Shown here in pieces: positions 1-19,700 of a stretch of DNA of 56,679 bases. The notes under the pieces are model-generated. The model was not told the origin of the DNA and ran no database searches. It worked only from the letters and a program-made list of their open reading frames with translations. Each line of letters opens with the position of its first letter. Position 1 is the first letter of the stretch. The translations under genes were made by a program, and so were the position numbers. The stretch spans positions 1 through 56,679 of the forward strand of contig CAIWSB010000030.1 of NCBI GenBank assembly GCA_903915225.1, in the 5' to 3' direction. The stretch is from an uncultured Candidatus Woesearchaeota archaeon (GTDB lineage: Archaea; Nanobdellota; Nanobdellia; Woesearchaeales; B29-G15).

Positions 1-47
1 ATGCCCAGCATATCCTCAAGTGAAAGCGCTGTTGTAATGCTGTTCAT
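1..47 (-). CDS. Array paralog, N-terminal fragment only (gene runs off the left edge)
   Basis: Reverse complement of 1-47 reads MNSITTALSLEDMLG, the same N-terminal helix as 6908..7339 (MSSITTALTLEEMVG). The ATG at 47 overlaps the TGA of 44..523 as ATGA, with AGGAGG 8 nt upstream. Confidence 0.7.
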   Translation of the reverse strand, partial: MNSITTALSLEDMLG

Positions 48-523
48 TTTCCCATCCTCCTGTACCATGGCAGCCTCTCAACCTTTTTCACAGGGCTGAA
101 AGTTGAGTCCTTCTCCAGAACCTGCTTGAGCTCGTCAATATCCTCTGTTTTTTTCTTCTCCCTAATTCTTTTCTCTTCAGCCTCCCTCTTCTGCCTTGCC
201 GCCTCCTCTGCATCGCGTTTCTTGGTGTACACCCCATCGGCAATCTCAAAGATACCCTTGGCATCATCGCCACTTAGCTGAGCAACCTCACTTCTCCCAT
301 ACATTACAGATACATTATACCTGTTGATAATCGTATCAGGGAAAAACATATTGACTTTTTTTGAATGGTAGAGGGATACATTTACAGTGACTTTCTTATC
401 AGTCCCCTTTGGTGTATATGCCCCTGACAGGGTAACCGTCTTTCCATCTGATGTATTACTGCAACTCCAATCCTGCACACCCTGTGTCATCCCCAAAATC
501 TCTTCCAGACTAATGGCGTTCAT
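44..523 (-). CDS. Array paralog, single module, type A/F hybrid, unknown function
   Basis: 159 aa. Head 'SLEEILGMTQGVQDW' and 'GDDAKGIFEIA', an ER/K-rich spacer, tail 'RLPWYRRMGK'. Start moved from track ATG 544 to ATG 523, which gives an ATGA overlap with the upstream stop and AGGAGG 8-9 nt upstream. Confidence 0.8.
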   Translation of the reverse strand: MNAISLEEILGMTQGVQDWSCSNTSDGKTVTLSGAYTPKGTDKKVTVNVSLYHSKKVNMFFPDTIINRYNVSVMYGRSEVAQLSGDDAKGIFEIADGVYTKKRDAEEAARQKREAEEKRIREKKKTEDIDELKQVLEKDSTFSPVKKVERLPWYRRMGK

Positions 524-933
524 CTCCCCAACCTCCTGTACCACGGCAGCTTATCCGGCTTTTTGGCCAACGCGTCACGGAGTACGTCTACCTTCTGCTC
601 CAGCGCCTCCTCCTGCATCTTCCTTATTTTGTTTTCCCATTTAATCGTTATAGGATGGGCTTGGGTATAGCTGTCCTTTGCAATATTGTAAATCTTCTCT
701 GCCTCTTGGCTTGCATCTGAGACAATGGTTGCACCCTGGAAATCCACTGATACTGTATAGTATTCCCCGTACTTGTCCTTGAGCTCGGAAACTTTAATCT
801 TGACCTTTGAGAATGACCCCTCTGGATAAAACCCGCCGGAATATCTCGCGAGCTGGTCCAATGTATTTTTTTTCCTCCATCTCTTGACCTGCTTCGCAAT
901 CCCCAAGACCTCCTCGAGAGTGAGCTGCTTCAT
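520..933 (-). CDS. Array paralog, single module, type A, unknown function
   Basis: 137 aa. 'LTLEEVLGIAKQVKRW', 'EAEKIYNIA', tail 'KLPWYRRLGR'. Start moved from 954 to ATG 933. ATGA overlaps on both sides. Confidence 0.8.
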   Translation of the reverse strand: MKQLTLEEVLGIAKQVKRWRKKNTLDQLARYSGGFYPEGSFSKVKIKVSELKDKYGEYYTVSVDFQGATIVSDASQEAEKIYNIAKDSYTQAHPITIKWENKIRKMQEEALEQKVDVLRDALAKKPDKLPWYRRLGR

Positions 934-1370
934 CTCCCCATCCTCCTGTACCATGGGATCTGCTCAGGTTTTCCAGAGAGATACTCCCTCATTTCCTCAA
1001 TCTTGTTCTCTTTTCTCTCTTTGCGGCTTTTTTCTGCATATCTCAAACTTGCCTGCGCCATCTGAACCCCGCGGGGATGTAGCTTTTTGCAGCAGGCCTC
1101 GGCCTCATCAAAGAGCTTCTGGGCGCTTTCACCATCAAGGCTTGCCAATTCCTCATCTTCAAATTCATCAGTCCTGTAATATACAGAGCCCTTATAGTTA
1201 CCTTCGGAGTGGGTTTTATTTACTTTAATTTTGACACTGGGCCCAAAGAAACCTTTTGGTGAAAAATCCCCGGAGTACCCTGCCTCATCCGTGCGGAAGG
1301 AGTATTCCCATTTTCTGACCCTGTGGGCCATAGCCAAAATTTCCTCAAGTGTTAGTTCCCCCTCTTTCAT
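930..1370 (-). CDS. Array paralog, single module, type A, unknown function
   Basis: 146 aa. 'LTLEEILAMAHRVRKW', 'GESAQKLFDEA', tail 'QIPWYRRMGR'. Start moved from 1391 to ATG 1370. ATGA overlaps. Confidence 0.8.
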   Translation of the reverse strand: MKEGELTLEEILAMAHRVRKWEYSFRTDEAGYSGDFSPKGFFGPSVKIKVNKTHSEGNYKGSVYYRTDEFEDEELASLDGESAQKLFDEAEACCKKLHPRGVQMAQASLRYAEKSRKERKENKIEEMREYLSGKPEQIPWYRRMGR

Positions 1371-1771
1371 TCCCCCAGCCTCCTGTACCATGGAACTCGC
1401 CCTGCCTTGGCCTTCTCCCTGACCTGCTCAACAATTCTTAGGTGCTTCTCTTTAGCAGCCTCCTTTTTCTTTTTTTCATCCTCAATTCTTTTGAGCTCCT
1501 TTGGGCTTAGGTTCTTTTCAGCATATTCATAGATCTTTTTTGCATCAATACCTAAGAGCTCACCAACCTTCTTTTCCTTATAGTAAACCTCTCCATCGTA
1601 ATTGAGGTTTCCGGCGGACAGGGTCTCTCGCGCCCATACCCTTGCTTTGGAAAAAGGTCCAAAACTCAGGTGGCCATCATATACGGTGGAGCTGGAATAA
1701 TCGTTTCTTGTCCAATCTGTAATCTGATGTGCAATTTTCAGAATCTCCTCCAGATTTAGGTTGTCGCTCAT
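1367..1771 (-). CDS. Array paralog, single module, type A, unknown function
   Basis: 134 aa. 'LNLEEILKIAHQITDW', 'GIDAKKIYEYA', K/E-rich spacer, tail 'RVPWYRRLGE'. ATGA overlaps. Confidence 0.8.
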   Translation of the reverse strand: MSDNLNLEEILKIAHQITDWTRNDYSSSTVYDGHLSFGPFSKARVWARETLSAGNLNYDGEVYYKEKKVGELLGIDAKKIYEYAEKNLSPKELKRIEDEKKKKEAAKEKHLRIVEQVREKAKAGRVPWYRRLGE

Positions 1772-2184
1772 CTCCCCAGCCTCCTGTACAATGGGAGCTG
1801 CTCGGGTTTAGGGGCAATCCTCTCCCGTAGTTCCTCAAGGGCCTTAAGGCGGTCCTCCTCTTGAGCCCGTTTCTTCTCCTCTTTCCTCTGCTGTCTCCTG
1901 AGTTCTGATTTGGTTAAGCAACCATCTGCCAATTCATAAAGGGATTTTGCTTCCGCGCCATGAAGCTCACCAATCTTCTCATTCATATAGTACACATACC
2001 CCTCGTATCTAGAGTCAGAAAGGTGTTTATCTCCCCTTGAGTAGATTTTTGTCCCCTTTAAAGGCCCGGACTTGAAGCGCCCAACGTATTTGTTATAATT
2101 AGTATAGCTTAACCTCTTCCATCTCTTTACCTGCTTCGCCATATCCAGAATCTCTTCCAAAGTGAGGTCCGAGCTTTCAGTCAT
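1768..2184 (-). CDS. Array paralog, single module, type A, unknown function
   Basis: 138 aa. 'LTLEEILDMAKQVKRW', 'GAEAKSLYELA', tail 'QLPLYRRLGR'. 8-nt overlap (ATGACTGA) with the upstream gene, GAGGT 6 nt upstream of the ATG. Confidence 0.8.
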   Translation of the reverse strand: MTESSDLTLEEILDMAKQVKRWKRLSYTNYNKYVGRFKSGPLKGTKIYSRGDKHLSDSRYEGYVYYMNEKIGELHGAEAKSLYELADGCLTKSELRRQQRKEEKKRAQEEDRLKALEELRERIAPKPEQLPLYRRLGR

Positions 2185-2536
2185 TTCCGTACCTCGCTAA
2201 GTGTTTCTTTAGTACAGACAACAAATTCTTGCCCCTTCTCCTAGTATTCCTCGCCATTATTCTGGATATCACAGATTCCCTATCCCTAGCGATTTCCAAG
2301 ACCTTGGCAGCGCTGTTTCCATAAAATATGTCAACAGTTTCCTTGGAATCAGAAACAATGAGCTGGTAAACCTCCCGGCTTTTTTCAATGTACCTAGCCA
2401 CCTCTAAAAAGAGATATTCACCTTTCCCAACCCGGAAGTCCCCCATGTAATTCTCTTCGGTTACGCAATCCCTTTCGTCAAACCATTGGGAGCATTGGGC
2501 CATTTTGATGAGTTCATCAAGAGAGAATGTGCTCAT
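2177..2536 (-). CDS. Array paralog, single module, type C, unknown function
   Basis: 119 aa. 'MSTFSLDELIKMAQCSQW', 'YGNSAAKVLEIA', tail 'LARYGND'. ATGA overlap upstream. Confidence 0.8.
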   Translation of the reverse strand: MSTFSLDELIKMAQCSQWFDERDCVTEENYMGDFRVGKGEYLFLEVARYIEKSREVYQLIVSDSKETVDIFYGNSAAKVLEIARDRESVISRIMARNTRRRGKNLLSVLKKHLARYGND

Positions 2537-2949
2537 CTTCCCAGCCTCCTCATGAATGGAAGTTTGTCAGGCTTTGGCACAAAGCGTTCCATTACCCTTT
2601 CACGCAAAGCCTCCTTCTTAACTTCTAATGGGGTTTCAGGCTTGTTGCCAGTGGCAATTAACTCCTTGACTTTCTCGTAAACCTGCGCTGCATCCTCTCC
2701 TCTCAGCCCGGCCACCTGCCTCCCGTCATATTTGATCCTCACAACATATTCCTCGTGCATGCCCTGTTCAATGGCTTCTTTCCTTGTTTTCAAAATCTCA
2801 ATGTCTCCTATGTAATACTTACCAAATATTTTCATGGGTTTAATGCTAAATTTCCCTGAGTAAGTTTCATATAAATGGTTCTGGGGCACTTCCCATTTTT
2901 CCACCTTATCAACAATCTCCAGAATTTGCTCCAGAGGCAGCTCGTTCAT
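2533..2949 (-). CDS. Array paralog, single module, type B, unknown function
   Basis: 138 aa. 'MNELPLEQILEIVDKVEKW', 'GEDAAQVYEKV', tail 'KLPFMRRLGR'. ATGA overlaps. Confidence 0.8.
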   Translation of the reverse strand: MNELPLEQILEIVDKVEKWEVPQNHLYETYSGKFSIKPMKIFGKYYIGDIEILKTRKEAIEQGMHEEYVVRIKYDGRQVAGLRGEDAAQVYEKVKELIATGNKPETPLEVKKEALRERVMERFVPKPDKLPFMRRLGR

Positions 2950-3407
2950 TTCCCCAGCCTCCTATACCAAGGCAGCCTCTCAGGTTTAGGGGCAATCATC
3001 TCCTTTAGCTCCTGCACTTTCCTTATGCGCCTCTCCTCACCAATCTGCTTTGCCCTTTCGCGCCTCTCCTCAGCAGCCAGTCTATCCCTCTCCTTCTTCT
3101 CTAATATTTTTATGACCTTCTGGTTTAGCTTTGATTCGGCAATCTCATAAATCCCTTTCGCATCATCGCCACTCAAGTTTGCCACCTGCTCATTCTTGAA
3201 GTAAACATACCCATAATAGCTGGTTGTAACGGAATATTCGGTCTTCCTGACCTCAATTCTGACTTTGCTCAAACCCCCATTGATCCTATAAAACCCATCC
3301 AATTCCGAAGTTTCATTAGAGTAGGTGTTGATTTTCTTCCATGCCTTAACCTGCCTCGCCATCTGAAGTATCTCTTCCAGTGTGAGCTCGGGGCTAACGC
3401 TGTTCAT
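2946..3407 (-). CDS. Array paralog, single module, type A, unknown function
   Basis: 153 aa. 'LTLEEILQMARQVKAW', 'GDDAKGIYEIA', ER/K spacer, tail 'RLPWYRRLGK'. ATG 3407 preferred over 3416 because GAGGT then lies 9 nt upstream. 14-nt overlap with 3394..3762. Confidence 0.75.
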   Translation of the reverse strand: MNSVSPELTLEEILQMARQVKAWKKINTYSNETSELDGFYRINGGLSKVRIEVRKTEYSVTTSYYGYVYFKNEQVANLSGDDAKGIYEIAESKLNQKVIKILEKKERDRLAAEERRERAKQIGEERRIRKVQELKEMIAPKPERLPWYRRLGK

Positions 3408-3762
3408 TTTTCTCATACCTCTTCATGTCCCTCTTTAGAGCCCTGAGCATTCCAGCTGCGCCACGCTCGGCCATCCAATGCCAATATTTCGCAGCTGTTG
3501 TAAGCCTATCCTTAGCTATTTCCAGAACCTTTTTGGCATCATCCCCATAGATGACCTCCTCAAGGTCATTCGAGTACATTACGATTAGCCTGTAAATTTC
3601 CTGGCCGTTGCTGAAGTGCCTTGAAGATACCAGGTTTAGCTTCTCATCTTTCCCCAGCTTGAAAGTCCCGTCATAATACTCCTCAACAACAGCGCTCCTG
3701 CCGCTTTTCCAGCGGGATTTCCCTGCAATATCCACAAGCTCGTCAATTGTGAATGTGCTCAT
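3394..3762 (-). CDS. Array paralog, single module, type C, unknown function
   Basis: 122 aa. 'MSTFTIDELVDIAGKSRW', 'YGDDAKKVLEIA', tail 'MKRYEKNEQR'. ATGA overlap upstream. Confidence 0.8.
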   Translation of the reverse strand: MSTFTIDELVDIAGKSRWKSGRSAVVEEYYDGTFKLGKDEKLNLVSSRHFSNGQEIYRLIVMYSNDLEEVIYGDDAKKVLEIAKDRLTTAAKYWHWMAERGAAGMLRALKRDMKRYEKNEQR

Positions 3763-4175
3763 TTTCCCAGCCTCCGTATGAGTGGCAGCTTTTCTGGCTT
3801 GGGTGCGAGAGCCGCTTTGACCTTGTCACGGACAGCTTTCTTCTGGATATCAGCCGAGTCCTCAAGCTCTATCTCGCCAACTATCTTCTTGACCTTGTCA
3901 TAGACTTTGGCTGCATCCTGGCCCCGGAGGCCAGCAACATCAAACCCATTGTACGTCACAACAACTGTGTAATCATCCATTACACCCTCCTTGACAGCGC
4001 CCTCCTTTGTCTTCAGTATCTGGACCTTCCCATAGTAAGGTTGCCCATTGATATAGTTGAAGCCGTTGTATGAGAAATTCCCAGAGTAACGCTCATGTGT
4101 GGGGTCGAAAACAAACTGCCAACTGTTCGCCTTCTCAACAATCTTCATAATCTCCTCAAGCGGCAGCTCGTTCAT
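3759..4175 (-). CDS. Array paralog, single module, type B, unknown function
   Basis: 138 aa. 'MNELPLEEIMKIVEKANSW', 'GQDAAKVYDKV', tail 'KLPLIRRLGK'. ATGA overlaps. Confidence 0.8.
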   Translation of the reverse strand: MNELPLEEIMKIVEKANSWQFVFDPTHERYSGNFSYNGFNYINGQPYYGKVQILKTKEGAVKEGVMDDYTVVVTYNGFDVAGLRGQDAAKVYDKVKKIVGEIELEDSADIQKKAVRDKVKAALAPKPEKLPLIRRLGK

Positions 4176-4513
4176 CTCCCAATCCTCCGATACCAGGGCA
4201 AAGCCTCGCCTTTCCTGGGTGGCAGCAGCCGGAAGAACCTCTGCTGATGGTAAGCCTCATCAGCAATCTCGTAAAGGCTCTTGGCCTCTTCGCCGCTCGT
4301 GTGTTTAAGGTGCTTGTTCTTTGGCACCAGAGCGAACATATCTCCCAGGTTGCCATGGGAATTATAACGGTAGGAGTCAATGTAATAGCTCATTAAATAG
4401 CAATTGCGGGCGGCACATTTCCCGTAGTAAACCACCATAGTTTCAGTGTCTATTAACCGCTTCCAAACAGGCACTTCCCTGGCAACCTCCAGCATGTCCT
4501 CAACGCCACTCAT
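4172..4513 (-). CDS. Array paralog, single module, short type A, unknown function
   Basis: 113 aa. 'MLEVAREVPVW', 'GEEAKSLYEIA', 'QQRFFRLLPP', tail 'EALPWYRRIGR'. No ER/K spacer. ATGA overlaps. Confidence 0.8.
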   Translation of the reverse strand: MSGVEDMLEVAREVPVWKRLIDTETMVVYYGKCAARNCYLMSYYIDSYRYNSHGNLGDMFALVPKNKHLKHTSGEEAKSLYEIADEAYHQQRFFRLLPPRKGEALPWYRRIGR

Positions 4514-5364
4514 TTCTTATCACCCAGGACATGCCTCTTCAGGGCCTCAATCCTCTCAAGCCGCGCCTTCTCTTCCCGCTCTTTCGCGAGCTCTGCCATC
4601 CGAGGGCCGATATAATCAAACAACGCCTTTGCCTCATCACCAGTCAGGTAGCCCACCTTGTTCCCTTTATGGTTTATCCAGCAGCCATAAAATTCCACTT
4701 CCACCTTTGGCTCTTTGAAATTAATGTTGGTTTTATGCACCTCAATCTTGACTGTTCCAATCTCCTTGAGCTTGAGTTTGCCTGAGAAATAATTGATTTC
4801 CCTATTTGTATTATACTCTACAACTTCACCCCAGCTGTACTTAATTTTATGGTAGGAGGGCCCAACAATACGATTTGGCTTCCAGGCAACATCCTGCGTC
4901 ATTTTCATGACCTCTTCCAACGAGAAAGGCGTTGCCCTTGAATCCCCGCCCAATGCTGCCCTCATCTTCCCCACTTTTACAAGGGCTTCAGTGGTTAAAT
5001 CTGGGCTGCCCCTCACCCACCAATCAGCCATTGCCTGCTTAAGCTCCCCCGACCTCTTCATTTCACGCATTTCCTTCTCCTTGACTTCTTTGTCCATCTT
5101 CACTTTCACATAATCGAAAAGCTGCCTGGCCTCATCCCCCTTCACTTCTGCCATTTTTTCAGGACCATATGAAAGAGATGATATGTAATCAAACTCTCCA
5201 CCCTTATCAATACGTTCGATATCAAAACGCAATAACTTGAAAGACCAAAATCTCGGGTAGGTTTCACCAGTGTATCTCGTGGTGTTTTCAGATATAGTGT
5301 GCTGCCAACTTTCTATCTTATCAGCCATCTTCATCAAATCCTCAAGGCTCAGCGGGCTGCTCAT
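4510..5364 (-). CDS. Array paralog, double module, type D, unknown function
   Basis: 284 aa. Module 1 'LSLEDLMKMADKIESW...GDEARQLFDYV', module 2 'FSLEEVMKMTQDVAW...GDEAKALFDYI', tail 'HVLGDKK'. ATGA overlaps. Confidence 0.8.
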   Translation of the reverse strand: MSSPLSLEDLMKMADKIESWQHTISENTTRYTGETYPRFWSFKLLRFDIERIDKGGEFDYISSLSYGPEKMAEVKGDEARQLFDYVKVKMDKEVKEKEMREMKRSGELKQAMADWWVRGSPDLTTEALVKVGKMRAALGGDSRATPFSLEEVMKMTQDVAWKPNRIVGPSYHKIKYSWGEVVEYNTNREINYFSGKLKLKEIGTVKIEVHKTNINFKEPKVEVEFYGCWINHKGNKVGYLTGDEAKALFDYIGPRMAELAKEREEKARLERIEALKRHVLGDKK

Positions 5365-5729
5365 CTTTCGTACCTCTTCCTGTCTTTCCTTAGCAGCTCC
5401 AGGTCATCTTTGCCGTGTTCTATTTCCTTCCTTGTAAGATATTTTGAAAACCTGGCGGCGCGCTGGCGTGCGATTTCCATTACCTTGGCTGCATCATCGC
5501 CGTAAACCACGTCAACGAGATTCTTGAAATTGCCCACTGTGAGTCGGCAAGTCTCCTGGGCATCCTCTTTGTACCTTGCAACCTGAAGCCAGATAGAATG
5601 CCCCAGTTCAAGCCTAAGCTTCCCCCAATATACCTCTTCAGCCAAGAGGTAATCAGATGCGACAACATCCTGGTACCAGCGTGAGGATTCGGCCATTCTC
5701 ACCATCTCATCAAGGCTGAACCTGCTCAT
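5361..5729 (-). CDS. Array paralog, single module, type C, unknown function
   Basis: 122 aa. 'MSRFSLDEMVRMAESSRW', 'YGDDAAKVMEIA', tail 'RKRYER'. ATGA overlaps. Confidence 0.8.
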   Translation of the reverse strand: MSRFSLDEMVRMAESSRWYQDVVASDYLLAEEVYWGKLRLELGHSIWLQVARYKEDAQETCRLTVGNFKNLVDVVYGDDAAKVMEIARQRAARFSKYLTRKEIEHGKDDLELLRKDRKRYER

Positions 5730-12737: not shown

Positions 12738-13501
12738 TTCTTCTCACCCACCGTCTTCCTTACAATGGCCTTCTTGATACCCTCAAGCCTTGCTTCTACC
12801 CCTTTATTGTACCTCTCGCTTACAATTCCGCCAATGCGATTATCCATCAACTTTATTAGTTCCTGTGCAGGTTCACCCTCTATCTCGAATACTTTTTCTC
12901 CCTTGAAGAACCCCCTCACAAATAGTAAACTTCCCCCTATGTAATCATATTTCTTGGCGTAGCCGATTATTTTCACAGATGAGTTAGGCTGGTTTGTATT
13001 GAACTTGCCGTGATATTTATCGATGCCACCTTGATGAAGTGTCATGCCCATGCGGAACACCTTGCATTTACTCATTTTATTAATCATGCCAGCAACTTCG
13101 TCATATGTTAGAGGTGGAACAACAGAACTTTCCTGCGGCGTTCCTGTCAGCGTTTCTCTTAATTCCTGCAACGCCGTTTGGATTTTATCCTGCTTGATTT
13201 TTTTATTTCGGTAGGCGACTGCAAAAGGTCCAGAGGCACCTTCCCCTTGGTAGTCTGCGATTTTTTTGTCTGAATAGGTGACTGTTGCGCTGTATGTATA
13301 GCGTGGTAGAGTGGTTGGTTCTGTCACTTCAGCAAGAGCTCGGCCCACTTTTATGACCAATTTATCAAGTGAATACCATTTTGGGCTCATCATCCCAAAG
13401 TATGTTAAAGAGTTGGGCTCATTGCTGGTTGAATCCTTCCATAGCCTAACCTTTTTTGCCATTTCCGTAATCTGCTCCAGCGTGAAGGTGTTCTCGCTCA
13501 T
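12734..13501 (-). CDS. Array paralog, double module, type E, unknown function
   Basis: 255 aa. 'FTLEQITEMAKKVRLW', 'SPKWYSLDKLVIKV', 'LTYDEVAGMINKMSKC', tail 'TVGEKK'. ATGA overlaps. Confidence 0.8.
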   Translation of the reverse strand: MSENTFTLEQITEMAKKVRLWKDSTSNEPNSLTYFGMMSPKWYSLDKLVIKVGRALAEVTEPTTLPRYTYSATVTYSDKKIADYQGEGASGPFAVAYRNKKIKQDKIQTALQELRETLTGTPQESSVVPPLTYDEVAGMINKMSKCKVFRMGMTLHQGGIDKYHGKFNTNQPNSSVKIIGYAKKYDYIGGSLLFVRGFFKGEKVFEIEGEPAQELIKLMDNRIGGIVSERYNKGVEARLEGIKKAIVRKTVGEKK

Positions 13502-14259
13502 TTCTTCTCCACCTCCTTTCTCCTGAGAATGGCGCTCTTCATGCTCTCCAGCTTCTCTCTCTGGGACCTCTCCTTTTTGTCGTTCTTGAGGGCAACTATG
13601 CGTTTATCCGCCGCATCCAATATCTCCTCTTTTGTATCCCCATCCTCTGTTGCGTAAACCACATTCCCTCTGACGTAAATTGTCAAGATTATTTTTCTAT
13701 TAAATTCCTGTTTTGAGGCATATCTCTGGCGAATGGCCAGCTCCAGGTCCGGACTCTGCCCCCCTATCTTGATTCTCCCATTGTACTTAACGAAAGAATA
13801 GCCCGCACTACAAGTGCATTCATCAAATCTCTTAATTACACTCAGCACCTCATCAAGCGTGAGCTGCTTTACAATTGAGCTTTCCTGAGGCGTATCTGAA
13901 ATCAATCCACGCAGTTCCAGCAAGACCTTTTGTTTTTCTGATTCCACCTGCAGGTTACTCTTGTTTGCCACATCGAAAGGCTGGTTCGCATCTTGCCCTT
14001 TATAGTTTGCAATAATCTTGTCAGAATAGGATACAATGGCTGAGTAGGTTGACACAAGCGAATCTCCATTATGGCGGGTGTATCTCGCCACATTAAGCAC
14101 AAGCACGTCCAAGGAATACCATTTGGGCTTGATGTATCCAGTGTAGGCTGTTTTCTGCCCATCTGGGTAGATAACCCCTGAATCCATCCCGTCATTCCAA
14201 GTCCTGACCCTCTTGGCCATCTCTGTGATATCCTCCAGGGTGAATGCGTTCTCGCTCAT
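13498..14259 (-). CDS. Array paralog, double module, type E, unknown function
   Basis: 253 aa. 'FTLEDITEMAKRVRTW', 'KPKWYSLDVLVLNV', 'LTLDEVLSVIKRFDEC', tail 'KEVEKK'. ATGA overlaps. Confidence 0.8.
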   Translation of the reverse strand: MSENAFTLEDITEMAKRVRTWNDGMDSGVIYPDGQKTAYTGYIKPKWYSLDVLVLNVARYTRHNGDSLVSTYSAIVSYSDKIIANYKGQDANQPFDVANKSNLQVESEKQKVLLELRGLISDTPQESSIVKQLTLDEVLSVIKRFDECTCSAGYSFVKYNGRIKIGGQSPDLELAIRQRYASKQEFNRKIILTIYVRGNVVYATEDGDTKEEILDAADKRIVALKNDKKERSQREKLESMKSAILRRKEVEKK

Positions 14260-14975
14260 TTCTTCTCACCCTTGGATCTTATCCTCTCTTTCATCCTCTC
14301 GATGTGTTTTGACATCTCTGTCGTGCCCATCTCCTTCCTAATTTCTTTGAAGCGCTTGTCCATTTGCTCAATAAGACTGTCAGCAGGGAGTAGGTCGAAA
14401 AGTTTTTCGCCCTTATACTTCAAAGTAAAGTAAGTGAAGCCATCAACCGGTAAGTCATTCTTGCCAGCAATAATCTTAGCCCCTGGGATGCTTAATCTGC
14501 CTTTATAGGTGTAAGTTACTGCTTCGCCAGTGCTATGGCAATACCTGCTGCAGTCATCCATCTTTTTGATTATGCTTAGAACCTCCTCCAGCGTCAATGG
14601 TTTAACTATAGAGATATCCTGAAGAGGTTCCCCAAGCGCAGCTCGAACCTCCTGTATCCCCTTGTACTTTTTGGCCTCATGCGGGCGCTTTTTCGCGTAG
14701 GCGATTTCAAAGAGCTTTGATACATCTGGACCTGAGAATTCTGCCACCTTCTCCCCCAAAAAGGATACAGCCACTTTATAGGAGAATTTTTGCTCCGAAC
14801 TTTCTTCGAGGATTTTCGTGACATTTATTTCGAATTCTTTTAGTGACCACAATCTGGGACTGACTTTCCCACTGTAGCCGTAAGATCTGGGCTCGCCAAA
14901 GTAGCTTTCATTCCAGTATCCAACCTTCTGGGCCATCCCCATTATCTGTTCCAGGGTGAATGCGTTCTTGCTCAT
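14256..14975 (-). CDS. Array paralog, double module, type E, unknown function
   Basis: 239 aa. 'FTLEQIMGMAQKVGYW', 'LTLEEVLSIIKKMDDC', tail 'SKGEKK'. ATGA overlaps. Confidence 0.8.
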   Translation of the reverse strand: MSKNAFTLEQIMGMAQKVGYWNESYFGEPRSYGYSGKVSPRLWSLKEFEINVTKILEESSEQKFSYKVAVSFLGEKVAEFSGPDVSKLFEIAYAKKRPHEAKKYKGIQEVRAALGEPLQDISIVKPLTLEEVLSIIKKMDDCSRYCHSTGEAVTYTYKGRLSIPGAKIIAGKNDLPVDGFTYFTLKYKGEKLFDLLPADSLIEQMDKRFKEIRKEMGTTEMSKHIERMKERIRSKGEKK

Positions 14976-15709
14976 TTCTTCTCACCCGCAATCTTCTTCG
15001 AGAAGGCCCTCTTTATCTTCTCAATCCTCTCTTTCTTTTCCCTCTCTTGGATAACCCTATCTAAATCCCTCACGCGGTCATTTAGCTCTTGCAATATTTT
15101 GTGATATTTGAATTCAGTACCCTCTAAAACCGTTTCCCCCTTGTAATCCATTTTTAAGAACCATTTCCCATTGTTTTTATCGTAGTATCTTGAAATGAGA
15201 ATCCGCGAATCCTTCCCATCAAAATTAATTCTCCCGTCATATCTTGATGCAGTTCTATTCCTTTCGCTGTATTTGCACGAATCGAACCTCTTAATCAAGC
15301 CCACAACCTCGTCGCTACTGAGCGGGCTGACAGATGAGCCCTCCTGCGGCGTGTTTGAAATGAGTGTCCTCAATTCCGCCAGAGCCTTTTGTCTACTTAC
15401 TTCCTTAGATTCAATTTTCTTATTGGCAATATCAAATATATCAGAAACCTCATCACCCTGGTAATAGCCAATTGTCTCTTTGCCATATGTGACCCTCGCT
15501 GTGTACTTGTAATTCTGGCCGGACTGGGAATTCGCATCCTGGTAAGTCTGCCTGTCCACCTTAATGGCTAATCTATCAAGTGAATACCAATTTGGCTTAA
15601 TCCTCCCTGTAAAGCTGATATAGCCTAGCTTACTGTCGTCTTCTTCCTTCCAGCCCCTAACCCCCTTGGCCATTTCAGTAATCTGCTCCAGCGTGAAGGC
15701 ATCGCTCAT
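14972..15709 (-). CDS. Array paralog, double module, type E, unknown function
   Basis: 245 aa. 'FTLEQITEMAKGVRGW', 'KPNWYSLDRLAIKV', 'LSSDEVVGLIKRFDSC', tail 'IAGEKK'. ATGA overlaps. Confidence 0.8.
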   Translation of the reverse strand: MSDAFTLEQITEMAKGVRGWKEEDDSKLGYISFTGRIKPNWYSLDRLAIKVDRQTYQDANSQSGQNYKYTARVTYGKETIGYYQGDEVSDIFDIANKKIESKEVSRQKALAELRTLISNTPQEGSSVSPLSSDEVVGLIKRFDSCKYSERNRTASRYDGRINFDGKDSRILISRYYDKNNGKWFLKMDYKGETVLEGTEFKYHKILQELNDRVRDLDRVIQEREKKERIEKIKRAFSKKIAGEKK

Positions 15710-16164
15710 CCGAAAAACCTCCTGTACCAGGGCTGTTTCTTTTCAGCCAATTTGCATAATCTAGAATCCCCTGTGATGGCCTGCTTTATCTCTTCTATGA
15801 CAGCCAGTTTCTCATCCTCTCTCCTTTTTCGCTCAGCAAAAACCGCTTCATTTTCCTTGAGATAGTGGGCCTTCTCAGCAATAGCAAACACTCTTTTCGC
15901 TGCCTTGTAGCTCAACTTGGAGATTTCAGTTTCCCCGCAACTCAAAGAACCACTATAAATATCATTATAAAAATCCCTTTCAAAGAAATAGTTATATTTA
16001 GAAGTCCTATAGTGCGATACCTTCAGAATTACCTCCTTGCCAGACCCAGCGGGTGTGAAGACTCCACTGTATTCAAAACCGTAAGTGTCCTTGTTGTTCT
16101 TGTTCCACAGAGGAACTGCCCGAGCTACTTTCAGAATCTCCTCCAGGCTCAGGGTGTTTTTCAT
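15706..16164 (-). CDS. Array paralog, single module, type F, unknown function
   Basis: 152 aa. 'LSLEEILKVARAVPLW', 'YKAAKRVFAIA', tail 'QPWYRRFFG'. Start moved from 16209 to ATG 16164 (ATGA overlap, AGGAGG 9 nt upstream). Confidence 0.8.
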   Translation of the reverse strand: MKNTLSLEEILKVARAVPLWNKNNKDTYGFEYSGVFTPAGSGKEVILKVSHYRTSKYNYFFERDFYNDIYSGSLSCGETEISKLSYKAAKRVFAIAEKAHYLKENEAVFAERKRREDEKLAVIEEIKQAITGDSRLCKLAEKKQPWYRRFFG

Positions 16165-16610
16165 CCCAAAAACCTCCTGTACCAGTGCCTTTTTGGGTTT
16201 AAGCTGCACAAAGTTGAGTCGCCACTGAGAACCTGCTTCACCTGCTGGATGGTTGCCTGCTCTGCCTCCTGCTTTTTCCTGAACTCAGCATTGGCCGCCT
16301 CAGCTTTCTTCAATAAGATTTTCTTCTCAGCAATCTCATAGACCCTTTTTGCCTGCTTTTCATTTAGCTCAACTGCTCCAGTATCGTCTAATTTCAATGA
16401 ACCCAGATATTGATAGCTAGAATAATCACCAAACATTCCGTAATGTTTAGTTTCAATACCTGTTGCGCTCACATGCATGCTTTTGTCAGAGCCATTTGGC
16501 GTAAACTGGCCAGAGTATGTCTTAGTGTCAAAATGATTGGTATCCTCTTTCCACTCACTAACCCCCTTGGCAATTGTTACAATCTCCTCAAGGCGCAGGT
16601 TGCTGCTCAT
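16161..16610 (-). CDS. Array paralog, single module, type F, unknown function
   Basis: 149 aa. 'LRLEEIVTIAKGVSEW', 'EKQAKRVYEIA', tail 'RHWYRRFLG'. ATGA overlaps. Confidence 0.8.
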   Translation of the reverse strand: MSSNLRLEEIVTIAKGVSEWKEDTNHFDTKTYSGQFTPNGSDKSMHVSATGIETKHYGMFGDYSSYQYLGSLKLDDTGAVELNEKQAKRVYEIAEKKILLKKAEAANAEFRKKQEAEQATIQQVKQVLSGDSTLCSLNPKRHWYRRFLG

Positions 16611-17068
16611 TTCAGAAACCTCCTGTAAAATGGGCGCCTCTCTTTTGCTCCGAGGGTTGAATCCCCGCTTAGGGCCTGCTTCAGCTCCCCGATTGCTTCC
16701 GACTTCTTCTCTGCAACTTTCCTTAACATTTCCGCTTCCTCTCTTTTCTTGCGGTTGGCTTCCTCATCGATTTTATGTTGGATGGCTTTCTCAGCTGCAA
16801 AGTACACTTTTTTTGCCTGCCTTGCTGTTAGCTCTACGATTGTGGTGTCCCCGAATGACAATGTGGCCACATAATCGTTTCTATAGCCTGACCAGGTGGC
16901 TGGGGCCCAAAACCTAGTCACTGATGTGTTCACAACCACGGCCTTATCAGAGCCATTTGGCGTATAGGTTCCTGAGTAAGAGTACCCGCAGTCAATGGGT
17001 TTTTTAGTCCACTCTGAAATCCCATTTGCAATTGTTACAATCTCCTCAAGGCGCAGGTTGCTGCTCAT
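16607..17068 (-). CDS. Array paralog, single module, type F, unknown function
   Basis: 153 aa. 'LRLEEIVTIANGISEW', 'ARQAKKVYFAA', tail 'RPFYRRFLK'. Start moved from 17116 to ATG 17068 (ATGA overlap). Confidence 0.8.
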   Translation of the reverse strand: MSSNLRLEEIVTIANGISEWTKKPIDCGYSYSGTYTPNGSDKAVVVNTSVTRFWAPATWSGYRNDYVATLSFGDTTIVELTARQAKKVYFAAEKAIQHKIDEEANRKKREEAEMLRKVAEKKSEAIGELKQALSGDSTLGAKERRPFYRRFLK

Positions 17069-17517
17069 CCCAAAAACCTCCTGTAGAACGGCCGGCTCTC
17101 CTTGGCCAGAGTGCACAGGGTTGAATCCCCCTTGAGTGCCTCTTTCACCTGGAGAACTGCAGCTGCCTTTTCCTCATCAGCCTTTCTTCGTACTGCCTCC
17201 ACCTTCTCATCTTCCCTTTGTAGGTAGGCCTTCCTTACAGCCTGGTAGACCCTTTTAGCTTGCCCAGAAGTCAGCGATGTGAGCTCAGTCTCCCCCAATT
17301 TCAGTGAGGCATGATAAATTAATATTCTCCTGTCTGGGAGAAATTCATTGCGCTTCGTGCGAACAGAAATTGTTGCACTCACAACTATGCTCTTGTCAGA
17401 GCCATTTGGTGTATAGGCCCCTTTATAGAACGTATCATAGTCTTTCTTTTCGCGTTTCCACTCCGAAACGCCCTTGACAATTGTTACAATCTCCTCAAGG
17501 CGCAGGTTGTTGCTCAT
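17065..17517 (-). CDS. Array paralog, single module, type F, unknown function
   Basis: 150 aa. 'LRLEEIVTIVKGVSEW', 'SGQAKRVYQAV', tail 'RPFYRRFLG'. ATGA overlaps. Confidence 0.8.
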   Translation of the reverse strand: MSNNLRLEEIVTIVKGVSEWKREKKDYDTFYKGAYTPNGSDKSIVVSATISVRTKRNEFLPDRRILIYHASLKLGETELTSLTSGQAKRVYQAVRKAYLQREDEKVEAVRRKADEEKAAAVLQVKEALKGDSTLCTLAKESRPFYRRFLG

Positions 17518-17939
17518 CCCAAAAACCTCCTGTAGAATGGCCGGCTCTCCCTTGCTCCAATGGTAGAATCCCCTTTGAGTGCCTCTTTTACCTCGAGGAC
17601 AGCCTTCTTTCGCTCGGCATCCGCCCTTTCCTCCTCTTTTTGCAAGTACGCTCTTTTGACAGTCTCATAGACGCGTTTTGCCTGCCCTGGAGTCAGCGAT
17701 GTGAGCTTAGTTTCCCCCAATTTTAATGAGGCTTGATAAGAGTGAATTGTCCTATTAGGTAATAATTCGTTAATCTTAGTGCGAACCGCCATTGATGCGC
17801 TCACAAGTATACTTTTATTAGAGCCATTAGGAGTGTAAACCCCGGTGTAGGCAATATCATATTCTCTCTTATCGCGTTTCCACTCAGGAACGCCCTTGAC
17901 AATTGTTACAATCTCCTCAAGCGAAAGTTTTGTTGCCAT
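17514..17939 (-). CDS. Array paralog, single module, type F, unknown function
   Basis: 141 aa. 'LSLEEIVTIVKGVPEW', 'PGQAKRVYETV', tail 'RPFYRRFLG'. 4-nt gap to the upstream gene, AGGT 9 nt upstream of the ATG. Confidence 0.8.
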   Translation of the reverse strand: MATKLSLEEIVTIVKGVPEWKRDKREYDIAYTGVYTPNGSNKSILVSASMAVRTKINELLPNRTIHSYQASLKLGETKLTSLTPGQAKRVYETVKRAYLQKEEERADAERKKAVLEVKEALKGDSTIGARESRPFYRRFLG

Positions 17940-17943
17940 GGTC

Positions 17944-18312
17944 TTAACCTATATGGTATTCTAGGGCGTTTTTACCATCCCTAGCCCTAACTTGATAATT
18001 CTCATCCAATCTCTTTTGTGTGGTGGCCTGGATTTTCCCATAAAGCTTCTCAATCTCTGCACCCTCAAAATGGCATAATACCCCCGAGGAATCCGAGTAC
18101 ATCAGTGTGAATTCGCTTCCAGGTTTCAGAATCTCAAATCTGTATTTGTCTCCCGCATAAAAGATTTCACGGTAGTATCCAATAATGTTGTCACCTTCGT
18201 TATTGAGGATGACTTGCCAATCATTTACCTTTTCTGAAAAAGCAACCAAATCCTCAAGCTTTACACCGGTTCCTTTAGCATCCTCGCTCACAAATCTGAA
18301 TAAGTCTGTCAT
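17944..18312 (-). CDS. Array paralog, single module, type G, unknown function
   Basis: 122 aa. 'LEDLVAFSEKVNDWQVILNNEGDNIIGY', 'GAEIEKLYGKI'. No ER/K spacer and no WYRR tail. AGGTGAT 7 nt upstream of the ATG; this SD contains the TGA stop of the upstream gene. Confidence 0.75.
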   Translation of the reverse strand: MTDLFRFVSEDAKGTGVKLEDLVAFSEKVNDWQVILNNEGDNIIGYYREIFYAGDKYRFEILKPGSEFTLMYSDSSGVLCHFEGAEIEKLYGKIQATTQKRLDENYQVRARDGKNALEYHIG

Positions 18313-18319
18313 TTTTCAA

Positions 18320-18703
18320 TCACCTTAAAAAGCGCATCCCACGCTTGGCCCTCTCGGCCCTCTCTTTGAATTGTTCATCAATGAGCTTTTGGTGACAGCT
18401 GTTAATCCCCTCATAAAGCCCCGCAACCATTTCCCCCTCAAAATAGGATAAAATCCCTTGAGAGTCAGAGAGCGTCAATGTGAAGGCTGCTCCTGGCTTT
18501 CGTATCTCTAAATGGTAAACCTTGGGATTATAGGTAGAGGAGGAATTTCTGAAGTCCCTGCTAAACCCTATGATGTTGTCACCTTCATCGTTTAGGATAT
18601 GCTGCCAACCACTTTCTGTTATCTTGACCAGATTCTCCAACTCATCCAGTGAAGGACCGCATCCCTTAAAATCCGGGCTGACAAGCTTGTAATTGTCGCT
18701 CAT
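18320..18703 (-). CDS. Array paralog, single module, type G, unknown function
   Basis: 127 aa. 'LDELENLVKITESGWQHILNDEGDNIIGF', 'GEMVAGLYEGI'. ATGA overlap upstream. Confidence 0.75.
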   Translation of the reverse strand: MSDNYKLVSPDFKGCGPSLDELENLVKITESGWQHILNDEGDNIIGFSRDFRNSSSTYNPKVYHLEIRKPGAAFTLTLSDSQGILSYFEGEMVAGLYEGINSCHQKLIDEQFKERAERAKRGMRFLR

Positions 18704-19194
18704 TTTTTCTCAGCTCCCCGTGCAATGCTTATTACCTCAGCTGCCCGCTTCACAGATGAGCCATACACCTCATTGACCCTGCTGAGATACTCCTCCTCAA
18801 CCTTCCTGTAAAGCCGCTCAACCTCAGGTGAGGATTTCTTTGCAAGGATCTTTGGACCATCAGCCACACTCATGGGTGTTTCATCATGTAGGAATTGGTA
18901 GAGGTCTCGTGTCTTTCCTGAGTCCCAAGCAACTATCATATAGCCCTCGCCTGGCTTTCTCAACTCAACTTTGAAAGAATATGAAGTTGGCAGTCCTTTA
19001 TTTTCGCTATACCTTAGCCATGGCAGGTTGGCCTCGCCAATAAAGCCGGTCATGTTGTCCCCTTCATTATTAAACACAGGGACCCATTCCTTAACTAGCC
19101 CTGCAAGATACAATAAATCCTCCAAATCTGGCCCCATGGCCATGCGATCATCAGCTACCTTGCTAAAATCCCATTCTGTTTTTTGTCGGTTCAT
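18700..19194 (-). CDS. First gene of the array, single module, type G, unknown function
   Basis: 164 aa from ATG 19194 (MNRQKTEW...). 'LEDLLYLAGLVKEWVPVFNNEGDNMTGF', 'SPEVERLYRKV'. The track ORF extends to a TTG at 19407, but that extension has no similarity to the other type G genes. GGTGAG lies 4 nt upstream of ATG 19194. Confidence 0.7.
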   Translation of the reverse strand: MNRQKTEWDFSKVADDRMAMGPDLEDLLYLAGLVKEWVPVFNNEGDNMTGFIGEANLPWLRYSENKGLPTSYSFKVELRKPGEGYMIVAWDSGKTRDLYQFLHDETPMSVADGPKILAKKSSPEVERLYRKVEEEYLSRVNEVYGSSVKRAAEVISIARGAEKK

Positions 19195-19199
19195 TCCAC

Positions 19200-19295
19200 T
19201 CACCAGTTTACAGCTACATCTGTAGCAATAATTATCATTAAATTCCCCCAAATTACCTAACTGTATAGTGGTAACTCCTTGTTTAAAAAGGTTTT
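19200..19295 (-). promoter_or_regulatory. Candidate promoter region of the array
   Basis: On the minus strand there are AT-rich TATA-like boxes: 'CTTTTTAAAC' (plus-strand coordinates 19282-19289) and 'AATTTAATGATAATTATT' (19227-19243). This is the only sizeable non-coding stretch upstream of the first array gene. The exact box cannot be decided from sequence. Confidence 0.35.
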
Positions 19296-19698: not shown

Positions 19699-19700
19699 CT

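What the first reader, a model, noticed from the sequence alone, without database searches (positions are those of the whole stretch)
1..19194. Gap-free 19-kb array of at least 38 paralogous small ORFs (~49 copies of one module) with no recognisable family
From the left edge to 19194 every base is covered by minus-strand ORFs: 37 complete genes plus a truncated 38th, with no gap above 7 nt. All genes share one module:
- an N-terminal helix [ST]-L-[ED]-[ED]-[ILVM]-x2-[MIV]-A-x2-V-x2-W;
- a beta-rich stretch containing Y-x-G;
- a helix G-x-[DE]-A-x2-[LIV]-[YF]-[ED]-x-A.

26 genes carry one module and 11 carry two. Eight sequence types sit in contiguous blocks:
- G: 17944-19194
- F: 15706-17939
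- E: 9759-15709
- D: 8075-9762 and 4510-5364
- A, short A, B and C interleaved from 44 to 8078

I see no signal peptides, no TM segments, no invariant catalytic-looking residues and no motif of any family I know. An array this long and this tightly packed is unusual for an archaeal chromosome. It could be an accordion-type expansion in a conflict locus (polyimmunity or decoy array, or a virus-like multigene family), or a set of subunits made in fixed ratios for one assembly. The array continues beyond the window.
Basis: partly seen in the sequence, partly recalled or inferred. Interest (0 to 1): 0.95.

Follow-up and report, generated by a model that had tools for sequence, protein, structure and literature searches.

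The report
Giant operon of one orphan protein
An uncultured archaeon carries a gap-free operon of about 42 genes (21.6 kb) built from some 50 diverged copies of one small protein module that matches no known family or structure, and its function is still unknown.

Summary
Bases 44-19194 hold 37 back-to-back minus-strand genes with 48 copies of one ~100-aa module, plus a truncated 38th gene at the left edge. An overlapping public contig adds five genes, giving 42 genes over about 21.6 kb.

- **Gene chaining:** 32 of 36 junctions are ATGA stop/start overlaps. Each gene's Shine-Dalgarno lies in the last codons of the gene before it.
- **Age and selection:** paralogues are 20-66% identical. Codon usage matches the rest of the contig. 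Orthologues in a related population give dN/dS 0.22-0.33.
- **Structure:** AlphaFold models are confident (pLDDT 91.5 and 85.7) and show helix, five strands, long helix. Conserved residues form the core. The exposed sheet face is hypervariable.
- **No known relatives:** Pfam, NCBIfam, PHROGs, PADLOC, PDB sequences, and Foldseek against PDB and BFVD gave no significant match.
- **Rarity:** only 62 of 1.84 billion representative proteins match. About 25 are distant homologues, in 1-3 copies where context could be checked.

My best reading is a co-translated panel of diversified binding modules, 19 of which share a C-terminal docking peptide. Subunits of one assembly is nearly as likely. A recent accordion expansion or a viral origin is not supported.

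The parts
1..47 (-). 5' end (15 codons) of the 38th array gene, cut by the window edge. It matches P0022, 128 aa, A-like type.
   Evidence: The ATGA overlap with the g1 stop is present.
44..523 (-). g1, type A: single module + charged stalk + tail LPWYRRMGK
520..933 (-). g2, type A, tail LPWYRRLGR
930..1370 (-). g3, type A, tail IPWYRRMGR
1367..1771 (-). g4, type A, tail VPWYRRLGE
1768..2184 (-). g5, type A, tail LPLYRRLGR
2177..2536 (-). g6, type B: short, no tail, ends ..ARYGND. The SD for the next gene lies in the R-Y codons.
2533..2949 (-). g7, type C, tail LPFMRRLGR
2946..3416 (-). g8, type A (start 3416 or 3407), tail LPWYRRLGK. Residues 6-109 were modelled.
   Evidence: (pLDDT 91.5)
3394..3762 (-). 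g9, type B
3759..4175 (-). g10, type C, tail LPLIRRLGK
4172..4513 (-). g11, short-A type: module + tail, almost no stalk
4510..5364 (-). g12, type D: two fused modules, ends ..VLGDKK
5361..5729 (-). g13, type B
5726..6139 (-). g14, type C, tail LPLMRRLGR
6136..6501 (-). g15, type B
6498..6911 (-). g16, type C, tail LPLHRRLGK
6908..7339 (-). g17, type A, tail LPFWRRIGK. P0016, from outside the window, is 78% identical (putative orthologue; its source contig was not looked up).
7336..7713 (-). g18, short-A type
7710..8078 (-). g19, short-A type
8075..8920 (-). g20, type D, two modules. Its orthologue P0011 on L005 is 80% identical, dN/dS 0.22.
8917..9762 (-). g21, type D, two modules. Its orthologue on L005 is 78% identical, dN/dS 0.33.
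9759..10496 (-). g22, type E, two modules, ends ..GEKK (GGTGAG acts as the SD for the next gene)
10493..11239 (-). g23, type E, two modules
11236..11985 (-). g24, type E, two modules
11982..12737 (-). g25, type E, two modules. The full length was modelled.
   Evidence: pLDDT 85.7, pTM 0.70
12734..13501 (-). g26, type E, two modules
13498..14259 (-). g27, type E, two modules
14256..14975 (-). g28, type E, two modules
14972..15709 (-). g29, type E, two modules
15706..16164 (-). g30, type F: module + stalk + ..GDS.L.. + tail QPWYRRFFG
16161..16610 (-). g31, type F
16607..17068 (-). g32, type F. A 92-aa variant, P0031, identical over 87 residues and then divergent, exists elsewhere in the collection.
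17065..17517 (-). g33, type F
17514..17939 (-). g34, type F
17944..18312 (-). g35, type G: acidic, NNEGDNIIG motif, divergent member
18320..18703 (-). g36, type G
18700..19194 (-). g37, type G, first gene of the operon (ATG at 19194, GGTGA 8 nt upstream)
19195..19400 (-). AT-rich leader and candidate promoter region of the operon, with TTTAAA-type boxes near 19290 and 19395. Not verified.
   Evidence: sequence only; GC 0.34-0.40

Best explanation
**What is shown.** This is a native, ancient, single-strand super-operon. It holds 42 back-to-back genes (37 complete in the window) and at least 52 copies of one ~100-aa module; two of the five off-window genes were not checked for family membership.
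- The module belongs to an orphan archaeal small-protein family. Where I could check context, outside members occur in 1-3 copies per contig.
- Genes are chained by ATGA stop/start overlaps.
- The Shine-Dalgarno of each gene is written into the last codons of the previous one: RR = AGGAGG, RY = AGGTAC, GE = GGTGAG. Ribosomes can therefore pass from gene to gene, and the paralogues are made together from one message.

**What the products look like.**
- Each is a soluble protein, basic in 32 of 37 cases. It has a head (helix, five-stranded antiparallel sheet, helix), a long K/E/R-rich helical stalk and, in 19 genes, an almost invariant tail [hydrophobic]-P-[aromatic]-[aromatic]-R-R-[hydrophobic]-G.
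- All residues conserved among the 48 modules are core or helix-capping positions.
- The alternate, outward-facing strand positions and the loops are close to maximally variable.

**What I infer.** The locus makes a panel of roughly 50 different binding surfaces on one scaffold. They are deployed together and, for about half of them, tethered through a common docking peptide to one shared partner. I think the most likely use is as specific intracellular binders, either adaptors or neutralisers, in a conflict or symbiosis setting. I do not think they are enzymes. The ligand class is not resolved.
For: **Array and coupling**
- 37 ORFs with 32 of 36 junctions at -4 nt.
- Elsewhere in the window only 6 of 24 same-strand junctions are -4 nt (Fisher p = 8.5e-7, coordinates).
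- RR codons are AGG in 36 of 38 cases against a background of 0.51 (p = 5e-9). The tail Pro uses all four codons, so the tail is constrained both as RNA and as protein.

**One family**
- HMM hits, HHalign between types and a reciprocal outside profile.

**Scaffold and variable face**
- AF2 models at pLDDT 91.5 and 85.7.
- Column entropy alternates in the strands, 1-2.5 bits at hydrophobic positions and 3.2-3.8 bits at outward positions.

**Real genes, native, old**
- dN/dS is 0.22 and 0.33 against orthologues at 83% nt identity.
- Synonymous codon usage correlates with the rest of the contig at r = 0.93.
- Paralogues are 20-66% identical.
- Gene order is the same on an independently assembled contig covering 20 genes, and a second 1.8-kb contig is 99.8% identical. 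Type order F-F-E and C-B-C is kept in more distant relatives.

**Soluble and basic**
- pI, GRAVY; hydropathy.

**Not an enzyme or known family**
-.

**Precedent**
- Large tandem sets of diverged small non-enzymatic paralogues are read as specificity repertoires in the SUKH study (PMC3113570).
Against: - No ligand, toxin, secretion system or mobile element is linked in the window.
- Gene content looks stable, not fast-turning-over. This is unlike typical conflict loci.
- Immunity proteins do not usually carry stalks or shared tails.
- Near-perfect translational coupling and 11 fused module pairs are at least as easily read as subunits of one assembly.
- The distant homologues whose contigs I could read sit next to ordinary archaeal housekeeping or regulator genes such as Spt5-L11, TrmB and HTH_10. 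That hints at an ancestral housekeeping role.
- Exposure of the variable positions is inferred from strand periodicity, not from coordinates.
- No expression data were available.
Confidence: 0.35

Rival explanations
1. The genes encode fixed-ratio subunits of one large hetero-oligomeric cytoplasmic assembly, such as a scaffold, lattice, filament or cage. The paralogues would pair through their heads and stalks. Each unique sheet face would specify a unique neighbour, and the shared tail would dock the set onto a common core.
For: - 89% of junctions are ATGA overlaps with embedded SDs, far more than elsewhere in the contig.
- 11 genes are fusions of two modules, and the relative orientation of the two is confidently predicted (pTM 0.70).
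- The fusion arose once and has been kept.
- Long helical stalks are predicted.
- Order is conserved, orthology where it could be tested (g19-g21 on L005) is 1:1, and selection is purifying.
- The SUKH paper itself raises a single complex as one reading of tandem paralogues.
Against: - I know of no prokaryotic assembly with about 40 distinct paralogous subunits (own knowledge).
- The outward sheet face is polar and hypervariable, not hydrophobic and conserved.
- Only 19 of 37 products carry the tail.
- No structural match to any known cage, filament or shell protein was found.
Confidence: 0.3
2. The genes encode cargo or effector proteins. The conserved C-terminal peptide behind a flexible stalk would be a targeting signal. 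It would load the variable heads into a compartment or export them into a host cell, as expected for an episymbiotic DPANN archaeon.
For: - The tail is almost invariant while the heads have diverged to 20-30% identity, and it is constrained at the protein level.
- The head-linker-signal layout resembles encapsulin or BMC cargo peptides and C-terminal secretion signals (own knowledge).
- The closest hits for the one marker tested are mostly Woesearchaeota/Nanoarchaeia MAGs.
- An AAA+/vWA gene cluster of unknown role lies 3.5 kb upstream on the same strand.
Against: - 18 of 37 genes lack the tail.
- Part of the tail is explained by the embedded ribosome-binding site.
- No shell, encapsulin or secretion genes were recognised in the window.
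- There is no motif match to known cargo peptides.
- The taxonomic placement rests on one gene.
Confidence: 0.12
3. The genes encode paralogous nucleic-acid-binding or regulatory proteins. The fold would be a dsRBD-like helix-sheet-helix, and the products would be basic proteins with an aromatic-arginine tail.
For: - 32 of 37 products have pI above 7.5.
- Several dsRBD-containing chains (Drosha/DGCR8, HYL1, probably mitoribosomal mL44) appear among the weak Foldseek hits.
- PUR and Whirly folds appear among the weak hits of the two-module model.
- Two of the distant homologues whose contigs I read sit directly after TrmB or HTH_10 regulators.
Against: - All these structural hits have E of 0.1-0.7, probability <= 0.35 and TM <= 0.4.
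- There is no Pfam dsrm hit even at E <= 1.
- The sheet has five strands, not three.
- The lysine after G-x-D-A is not conserved across types.
- The three G-type proteins are acidic.
Confidence: 0.08
4. The array is non-functional or selfish DNA: decaying duplicates or an assembly artefact.
For: No expression data are available. One 92-aa variant of g32 that diverges after residue 87 exists in the public collection (P0031).
Against: - All 37 frames are intact.
- dN/dS is 0.22-0.33.
- SD and ATGA signals are kept at nearly every junction.
- AF2 folds are confident.
- The same array was recovered from several independent assemblies.
Confidence: 0.02

Closest known systems
Tandem arrays of SUKH (SMI1/KNR4) and other immunity proteins of polymorphic-toxin systems (Zhang, Iyer and Aravind 2011, PMC3113570)
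   Same: - Both are tandemly linked, strongly diverged paralogues of a small, non-enzymatic, cytoplasmic alpha+beta domain.
- Both include two-domain fusions.
- Both are lineage-specific expansions.
- Both face the same two readings, one complex or many specificities.
   Different: - There is no sequence or fold similarity.
- No adjacent toxin, CDI, Rhs or nuclease gene is present.
- There are 42 genes in one coupled operon, against 'up to six' in tandem (about 20 per genome) in that paper.
- Order is conserved and selection purifying where comparison was possible, rather than high turnover.
- A stalk and a shared C-terminal tail are present.
- The host is archaeal.
Operons of paralogous structural subunits, for example gas-vesicle gvp genes, microcompartment shell paralogues and archaellin or pilin arrays (own knowledge)
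   Same: Several paralogues of one small protein are co-transcribed and translationally coupled to build one structure in set proportions.
   Different: - Those operons use 2-10 paralogues together with non-paralogous accessory genes.
- Here there are about 42 genes of one family and nothing else.
- There is no homology or fold match, no signal peptides and no hydrophobic assembly face.
dsRNA-binding domain (alpha-beta-beta-beta-alpha)
   Same: Both have a helix, an antiparallel sheet and a helix, with both helices presumably on one face. A Gly precedes the second helix. The proteins are basic.
   Different: The sheet has five strands. There is no Pfam dsrm match. The dsRBD-containing Foldseek hits have E of 0.17-0.7. 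The RNA-contact motifs are not conserved.
Orphan archaeal small-protein family defined here (alignment A5; P0034-P0061)
   Same: It has the same N-terminal helix L-[ST]-L-[ED]-E...A..V..W, Y-x-G, the strand pattern and the Y/F-containing helix. Profile hits are reciprocal.
   Different: - Outside members are 100-200 aa.
- Every contig I could read carries 1-3 copies.
- They lack the P-W-Y-R-R tail.
- They lie on low-GC (29-39%) contigs, five of the seven read carrying ordinary archaeal genes.
- They are never in long arrays in the contigs retrieved.

Membership tests
Orphan archaeal small-protein family (this work, A2/A5) | Reciprocal profile similarity over the whole ~100-aa module | tested here: met
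   The A2 profile finds 25 outside proteins at E 1e-6 to 1e-3 among 1.84e9 representatives. An A5 profile built only from outside proteins finds 45 of the 48 window modules, at domain E down to 6e-15, and nothing elsewhere in the window.
Translationally coupled operon | Same strand, no intergenic space, stop/start overlap, SD within the upstream gene | tested here: met
   32 of 36 junctions are ATGA. AGGAGG, GAGGT or GGTGA lies 7-12 nt upstream of most starts. Transcription as one unit was not tested.
SUKH / Imm-type immunity proteins | Profile match to a SUKH or other immunity-protein model | tested here: not met
   Pfam at E <= 1 on 10 representatives and E <= 0.1 on 24 outside members returned no immunity family. 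PADLOC returned none.
SUKH / Imm-type immunity proteins | Genomic linkage to a toxin (nuclease, deaminase, CDI, Rhs or polymorphic-toxin cassette) | tested here: not met
   No toxin domain was found among the window ORFs scanned with Pfam, NCBIfam and PADLOC. The far end of the array abuts LemA and GIDE genes.
SUKH / Imm-type immunity proteins | Variable gene content between close strains | tested here: inconclusive
   Gene order and lengths are identical in an overlapping contig of the same population. Only 0.5-1.7-kb fragments of other species were available.
dsRNA-binding domain | Pfam dsrm match, or a significant structural match with alpha-beta3-alpha topology | tested here: not met
   There is no dsrm hit. 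The dsRBD-containing chains among the Foldseek hits have E 0.17-0.7 and probability <= 0.35. The model has five strands.
Phage or viral multigene family | Homologues in viral genomes, or a viral or mobile context | tested here: not met
   - PHROGs gave only two noise-level hits, E ~1e-3, to families of unknown function.
- IMG/VR pattern scan found none.
- GenBank phages and PLSDB plasmids by tblastn found none.
- BFVD best hit was E 7.7e-3 with TM 0.42.
- Codon usage is native.
Known anti-phage defence systems | Match to any PADLOC model | tested here: not met
   Array proteins gave 0 hits. Neighbours gave only weak AAA-type hits, such as TRIP13 at 4.6e-6.
Encapsulin or BMC cargo with a targeting peptide | A shell-protein gene nearby and a known cargo-peptide motif | tested here: not met
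   No encapsulin or BMC Pfam domain was found among the window ORFs. The tail motif differs from the known ones (own knowledge). Binding is not testable here.

The most novel reading that the evidence does not exclude
A clade of uncultured, probably DPANN, archaea has built a new kind of cellular system from a single orphan fold. About 50 distinct heads are co-translated from one ~21.6-kb message and tethered by stalks and a shared C-terminal docking peptide to a common hub. The result would be a combinatorial protein assembly or recognition organelle, possibly serving symbiont-host interaction, with no counterpart among known prokaryotic machines.
Probability: 0.3. Interest if true: 0.9.

Novelty: categorically new. 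Interest (0 to 1): 0.78.

Why it matters
- If the host genome is as small as DPANN genomes usually are (about 1-1.5 Mb, own knowledge), this one operon takes roughly 1.5-2% of it. That is costly to keep without a strong selective reason.
- The operon consists solely of one protein family that none of the sequence or structure libraries tested here recognises.
- It is an extreme case of translational coupling. The ribosome-binding sites are dual-coded inside conserved C-terminal peptides in three different ways.
- It offers a confident new small fold with a conserved core and a hypervariable face, which is a natural binder scaffold.
- Working out its partner(s) could reveal how such archaea deal with hosts or competitors, or uncover a new multi-paralogue assembly.

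Tried and rejected
**Searches on array proteins with no significant result**
- Pfam, NCBIfam, PHROGs and PADLOC.
- Pfam on 24 outside homologues.
- PDB sequence profiles A1 and A5.
- Foldseek of both AF2 models against PDB, and of the single module against BFVD. Nothing reached E <= 1e-3. TM-scores are <= 0.42 against PDB and <= 0.54 against BFVD.
- Rfam on the whole window, and a sensitive scan of 19150-22300.
- tRNA scan.

**Searches for more arrays**
- Pattern scans of GTDB genomes, IMG/VR and JGI metagenomes with A3 or A4 found no relative. A1 was too diverse to scan.
- tblastn against phages and plasmids found nothing.
- The word-index protein search found only the organism's own proteins and a few ENA relatives.

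**Ideas tested and dropped**
- *Two-module genes are fusions of a C-type and a B-type gene.* HHalign shows D/E first modules and D/E second modules each group together and not with B.
- *Synteny would show an empty site.* Eleven MAG contigs with the orthologous Na/Ca exchanger share no other neighbour and carry no family member.
- *Oligo-T depletion would indicate one long transcript.* T-run density equals that of other coding sequence, so this is uninformative.
- *The PMBR hit to the N-terminal helix is real.* It has E 0.025-0.13 and is treated as noise.
- *P0036 is a family member.* This 1168-aa protein matches the first helix only and is treated as unrelated.
- *The tail is a PIP-box, HbYX, MIM2 or ubiquitin-like motif.* I considered these from memory. 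None fits the spacing and none could be tested.

Full report
**1. Observation.**

The ORF list and translations show 37 consecutive minus-strand ORFs between 44 and 19194.
- With starts chosen by Shine-Dalgarno position, 32 of 36 junctions are 4-nt ATGA overlaps. One is -8, one is -23, and two are gaps of 4 and 7 nt.
- Bases 1-47 encode the first 15 residues of a further gene. These are identical to P0022, a 128-aa protein.
- An overlapping 15.6-kb public contig (ENA ERZ1426812, also in NCBI) carries 20 consecutive genes with the same lengths and order as g1-g20. After g1 it adds genes of 128, 150, 146, 130 and 251 aa. Convergent LemA and GIDE genes follow.
- P0033 (150 aa) and P0062 (251 aa, a divergent two-module protein) are family members. 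P0062 was placed on that contig by look-up; P0022 and P0033 are assigned to it by length and, for P0022, by the window-edge sequence. The 146- and 130-aa genes were not checked.
- The operon therefore has 42 genes over about 21.6 kb.
- A second assembly, L001, is 99.8% identical over 1.8 kb. The array is not an assembly artefact.

**2. One family.**

- An HMM from 19 single-module proteins detects 48 modules: 26 single-module genes and 11 two-module genes.
- Paralogues are 20-66% identical.
- HHalign between ten type-specific sub-alignments links every type to type A at 97% probability or better. The G type links to C, E-N and D-N at 89-94%.
- The first modules of D and E group together, and so do their second modules. 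The fusion therefore arose once.
- No DNA repeat exceeds 96% identity over 47 nt. DNA similarity is concentrated at the junctions.

**3. Rarity and relatives.**

An exhaustive HMMER search of 1.84 billion cluster representatives with the 48-module profile returned 62 proteins at E <= 1e-3. By BLASTP they break down as follows:

| Group | Count |
|---|---|
| Window's own products | 26 |
| Continuation of the array (P0022, P0033, P0062) | 3 |
| Related arrays in other samples | 7 |
| Distant 99-217-aa proteins | 25 |
| Helix-only match (P0036) | 1 |

- A profile made only from 24 distant proteins (A5) finds 45 of the 48 modules in the window, all inside the array.
- The distant homologues whose contigs I could read are present in 1-3 copies per contig. 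They lie on low-GC (29-39%) contigs. Five of the seven contigs read carry ordinary archaeal genes: aIF5A, FtsZ, Spt5-L11, aEF-1beta, TrmB and HTH_10.
- Related arrays exist only as short ENA or NCBI contigs:
  - L005 carries orthologues of g21-g20-g19 at 83% nt and 79% aa identity.
  - L006 has the type order F-F-E at 33-39% aa identity.
  - L024 has a C-type tail, then a B-type gene, then a C-type start.
- Scans of GTDB genomes, IMG/VR and JGI metagenomes found none.

**4. Host.**

- The adjacent Na/Ca exchanger (19701-20822) is 66-75% identical to proteins of 11 archaeal MAGs. Eight are labelled Woesearchaeota, Nanoarchaeia or Nanoarchaeota, and three are labelled Methanosarcinales.
- None of these MAGs has the family next to the exchanger, and none shares further synteny.
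- The rest of the window is ordinary chromosome: MtnA, RdgB, a Cu-ATPase, a DEAD helicase, NeuB/DegT/PseB-type sugar genes and ThiF.
- Codon usage of the array matches it (r = 0.93, GC3 0.54 against 0.56).
- I conclude the host is an archaeon, probably DPANN. This rests on one marker gene.

**5. Real genes.**

- Nei-Gojobori dN/dS between window and L005 orthologues is 0.22 for g20 (dS 0.56) and 0.33 for g21 (dS 0.36).
- Identity along the pair is mosaic, from 65% to 98%.

**6. Translational coupling and dual coding.**

- The SD of each gene lies in the C-terminal codons of its predecessor, in three ways:

| Types | C-terminal residues | Codons giving the SD |
|---|---|---|
| A, short A, C, F | Y-R-R | TAC AGG AGG |
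| B | R-Y | AGG TAC |
| D, E | G-E-K-K | GGT GAG AAG AA(A) |

- Each pattern is followed by the ATGA overlap.
- In the 19 tails, Arg codons are AGG in 36 of 38 cases against 0.51 genome-wide (p = 5e-9). The conserved Pro uses all four codons and the Leu uses four.
- The tail is therefore selected as an RNA signal and also as a peptide.
- ATGA junctions are 89% in the array against 25% (6 of 24) elsewhere in the window (p = 8.5e-7).

**7. Protein anatomy.**

- AF2 with the 48-module alignment gives pLDDT 91.5 and pTM 0.80 for g8 residues 6-109. The elements are helix 8-17, strands 20-23, 31-39, 46-55, 60-68 and 71-77, and helix 79-103.
- The two-module g25 gives pLDDT 85.7 and pTM 0.70. Each head is followed by a 33-38-residue helix.
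- Column entropies show that conserved positions fall into three classes:
  - the N-cap box T-L-E-E;
  - the hydrophobic faces of both helices, W21 and G36;
  - every second strand residue, which is at least 80% hydrophobic at 1-2.5 bits.
- The intervening strand residues and the loops reach 3.2-3.9 bits. No conserved polar cluster suggests catalysis.
- The products are hydrophilic (GRAVY -0.5 to -1.2). 32 of 37 have pI above 7.5, and the G type is acidic. None has a TM-like segment.
- Nineteen products end in the tail. In the alignment of single-module proteins both Arg are invariant, Pro is in 18 of 19, and an aromatic precedes RR in 15 of 19.

**8. Comparison with what is known.**

- No significant match was found in Pfam, NCBIfam, PHROGs, PADLOC or PDB sequences.
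- Foldseek gave nothing significant against PDB or BFVD. The best were E 0.06 with TM 0.33 and E 0.008 with TM 0.42.
- Weak recurring hits to dsRBD-containing chains and to PUR/Whirly folds are leads only.
- No library of predicted cellular structures was available, so fold novelty is not fully tested.
- The closest conceptual analogue is the tandem array of SUKH immunity genes. It reaches up to six genes in tandem and has the same two competing readings (PMC3113570). None of its defining features (profile match, linked toxin) is met here.

**9. Interpretation.**

- **Shown:** a native, old, purifying-selected, translationally chained operon of one orphan family. The family has a conserved scaffold, a hypervariable face, stalks and a shared tail.
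- **Inferred, best reading (0.35):** a co-translated panel of about 50 binding specificities, about half of them tethered to one partner.
- **Rivals:**
  - subunits of one hetero-assembly (0.30), favoured by the coupling and the fusions;
  - targeted cargo or effectors (0.12);
  - nucleic-acid binders (0.08);
  - junk (0.02).
- A recent accordion expansion and a viral origin are not supported.

**10. Verdict.**

The function remains open. The locus is unusual enough to merit experimental follow-up.

Noticed in passing
window 19397-19494 (either strand; minus-strand TATA-like TTTATAAA at ~19505-19512): A 98-nt, 70% GC element in a ~47% GC contig, closed by a 9-bp stem (GCAGCAACA / TGTTGCTGC). 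It folds at -53 kcal/mol with only a modest z-score of -1.8. There is no Rfam or tRNA match. It could be a small structured RNA between the array leader and the next gene.
   Followed up: partly
window 19540-19698 (+): An unannotated 52-aa ORF (MSMDLKFTLSGPRGKTCADCSHF...GCNFFRKK) with a CxxC...C...C pattern. It has GAGGTG just upstream and a TTTATAAATA box about 35 nt upstream. Its 3' end lies within 3 nt of the exchanger's stop codon.
   Followed up: no
window 22726-33435 (-): Eight tightly packed co-directional genes of unknown function lie 3.5 kb upstream of the array on the same strand.
- Two are divergent AAA+ proteins: 590 aa, TRIP13/CDC48-like, and 766 aa, MoxR/Mg-chelatase-like.
- One is a coiled-coil protein with a C-terminal vWA-like DxSxS motif (23398-24807).
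- Five have no family match.

No PADLOC or NCBIfam system was recognised.
   Followed up: partly
window 21421-21860 (both strands): Overlapping ORFs on both strands have odd, Pro/Gly/Arg/Ser-rich translations and no obvious gene. There is no Rfam hit even at E <= 1. The region is unexplained.
   Followed up: partly
P0031 (public variant of g32, window 16607-17068): A 92-aa version of g32 exists in the public collection. It is identical to g32 over its first 87 residues and then diverges. It may be a frameshifted allele or an assembly error.
   Followed up: no
L023 234-1457; L018 9292-10420: Two of the distant homologues whose contigs I read lie directly downstream of transcription regulators on the same strand. 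One follows TrmB with a 12-nt gap. The other follows HTH_10 with a 46-nt gap. This may hint at the ancestral role of the family.
   Followed up: partly
P0036 (1168 aa, metagenomic): This protein has about 15 tandem repeats of a ~30-aa unit (L-[ST]-L-[DE]-Q-[VF]-x-E-I-A-x-x-x-x-W-[DN]...). The unit resembles only the first helix of the module. It is probably an unrelated helical repeat.
   Followed up: no
window 46271-52356 (-): A sugar-modification cluster (B12-binding radical SAM, NeuB, DegT-type aminotransferase, PseB-like dehydratase) suggests synthesis of a nonulosonic acid such as pseudaminic or legionaminic acid.
   Followed up: no
L002 6080-7982: In one low-GC archaeal contig, the single family member (P0034) is followed by four overlapping small genes (121, 126, 142 and 115+ aa). 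They do not match the module profile but are chained in the same way.
   Followed up: partly
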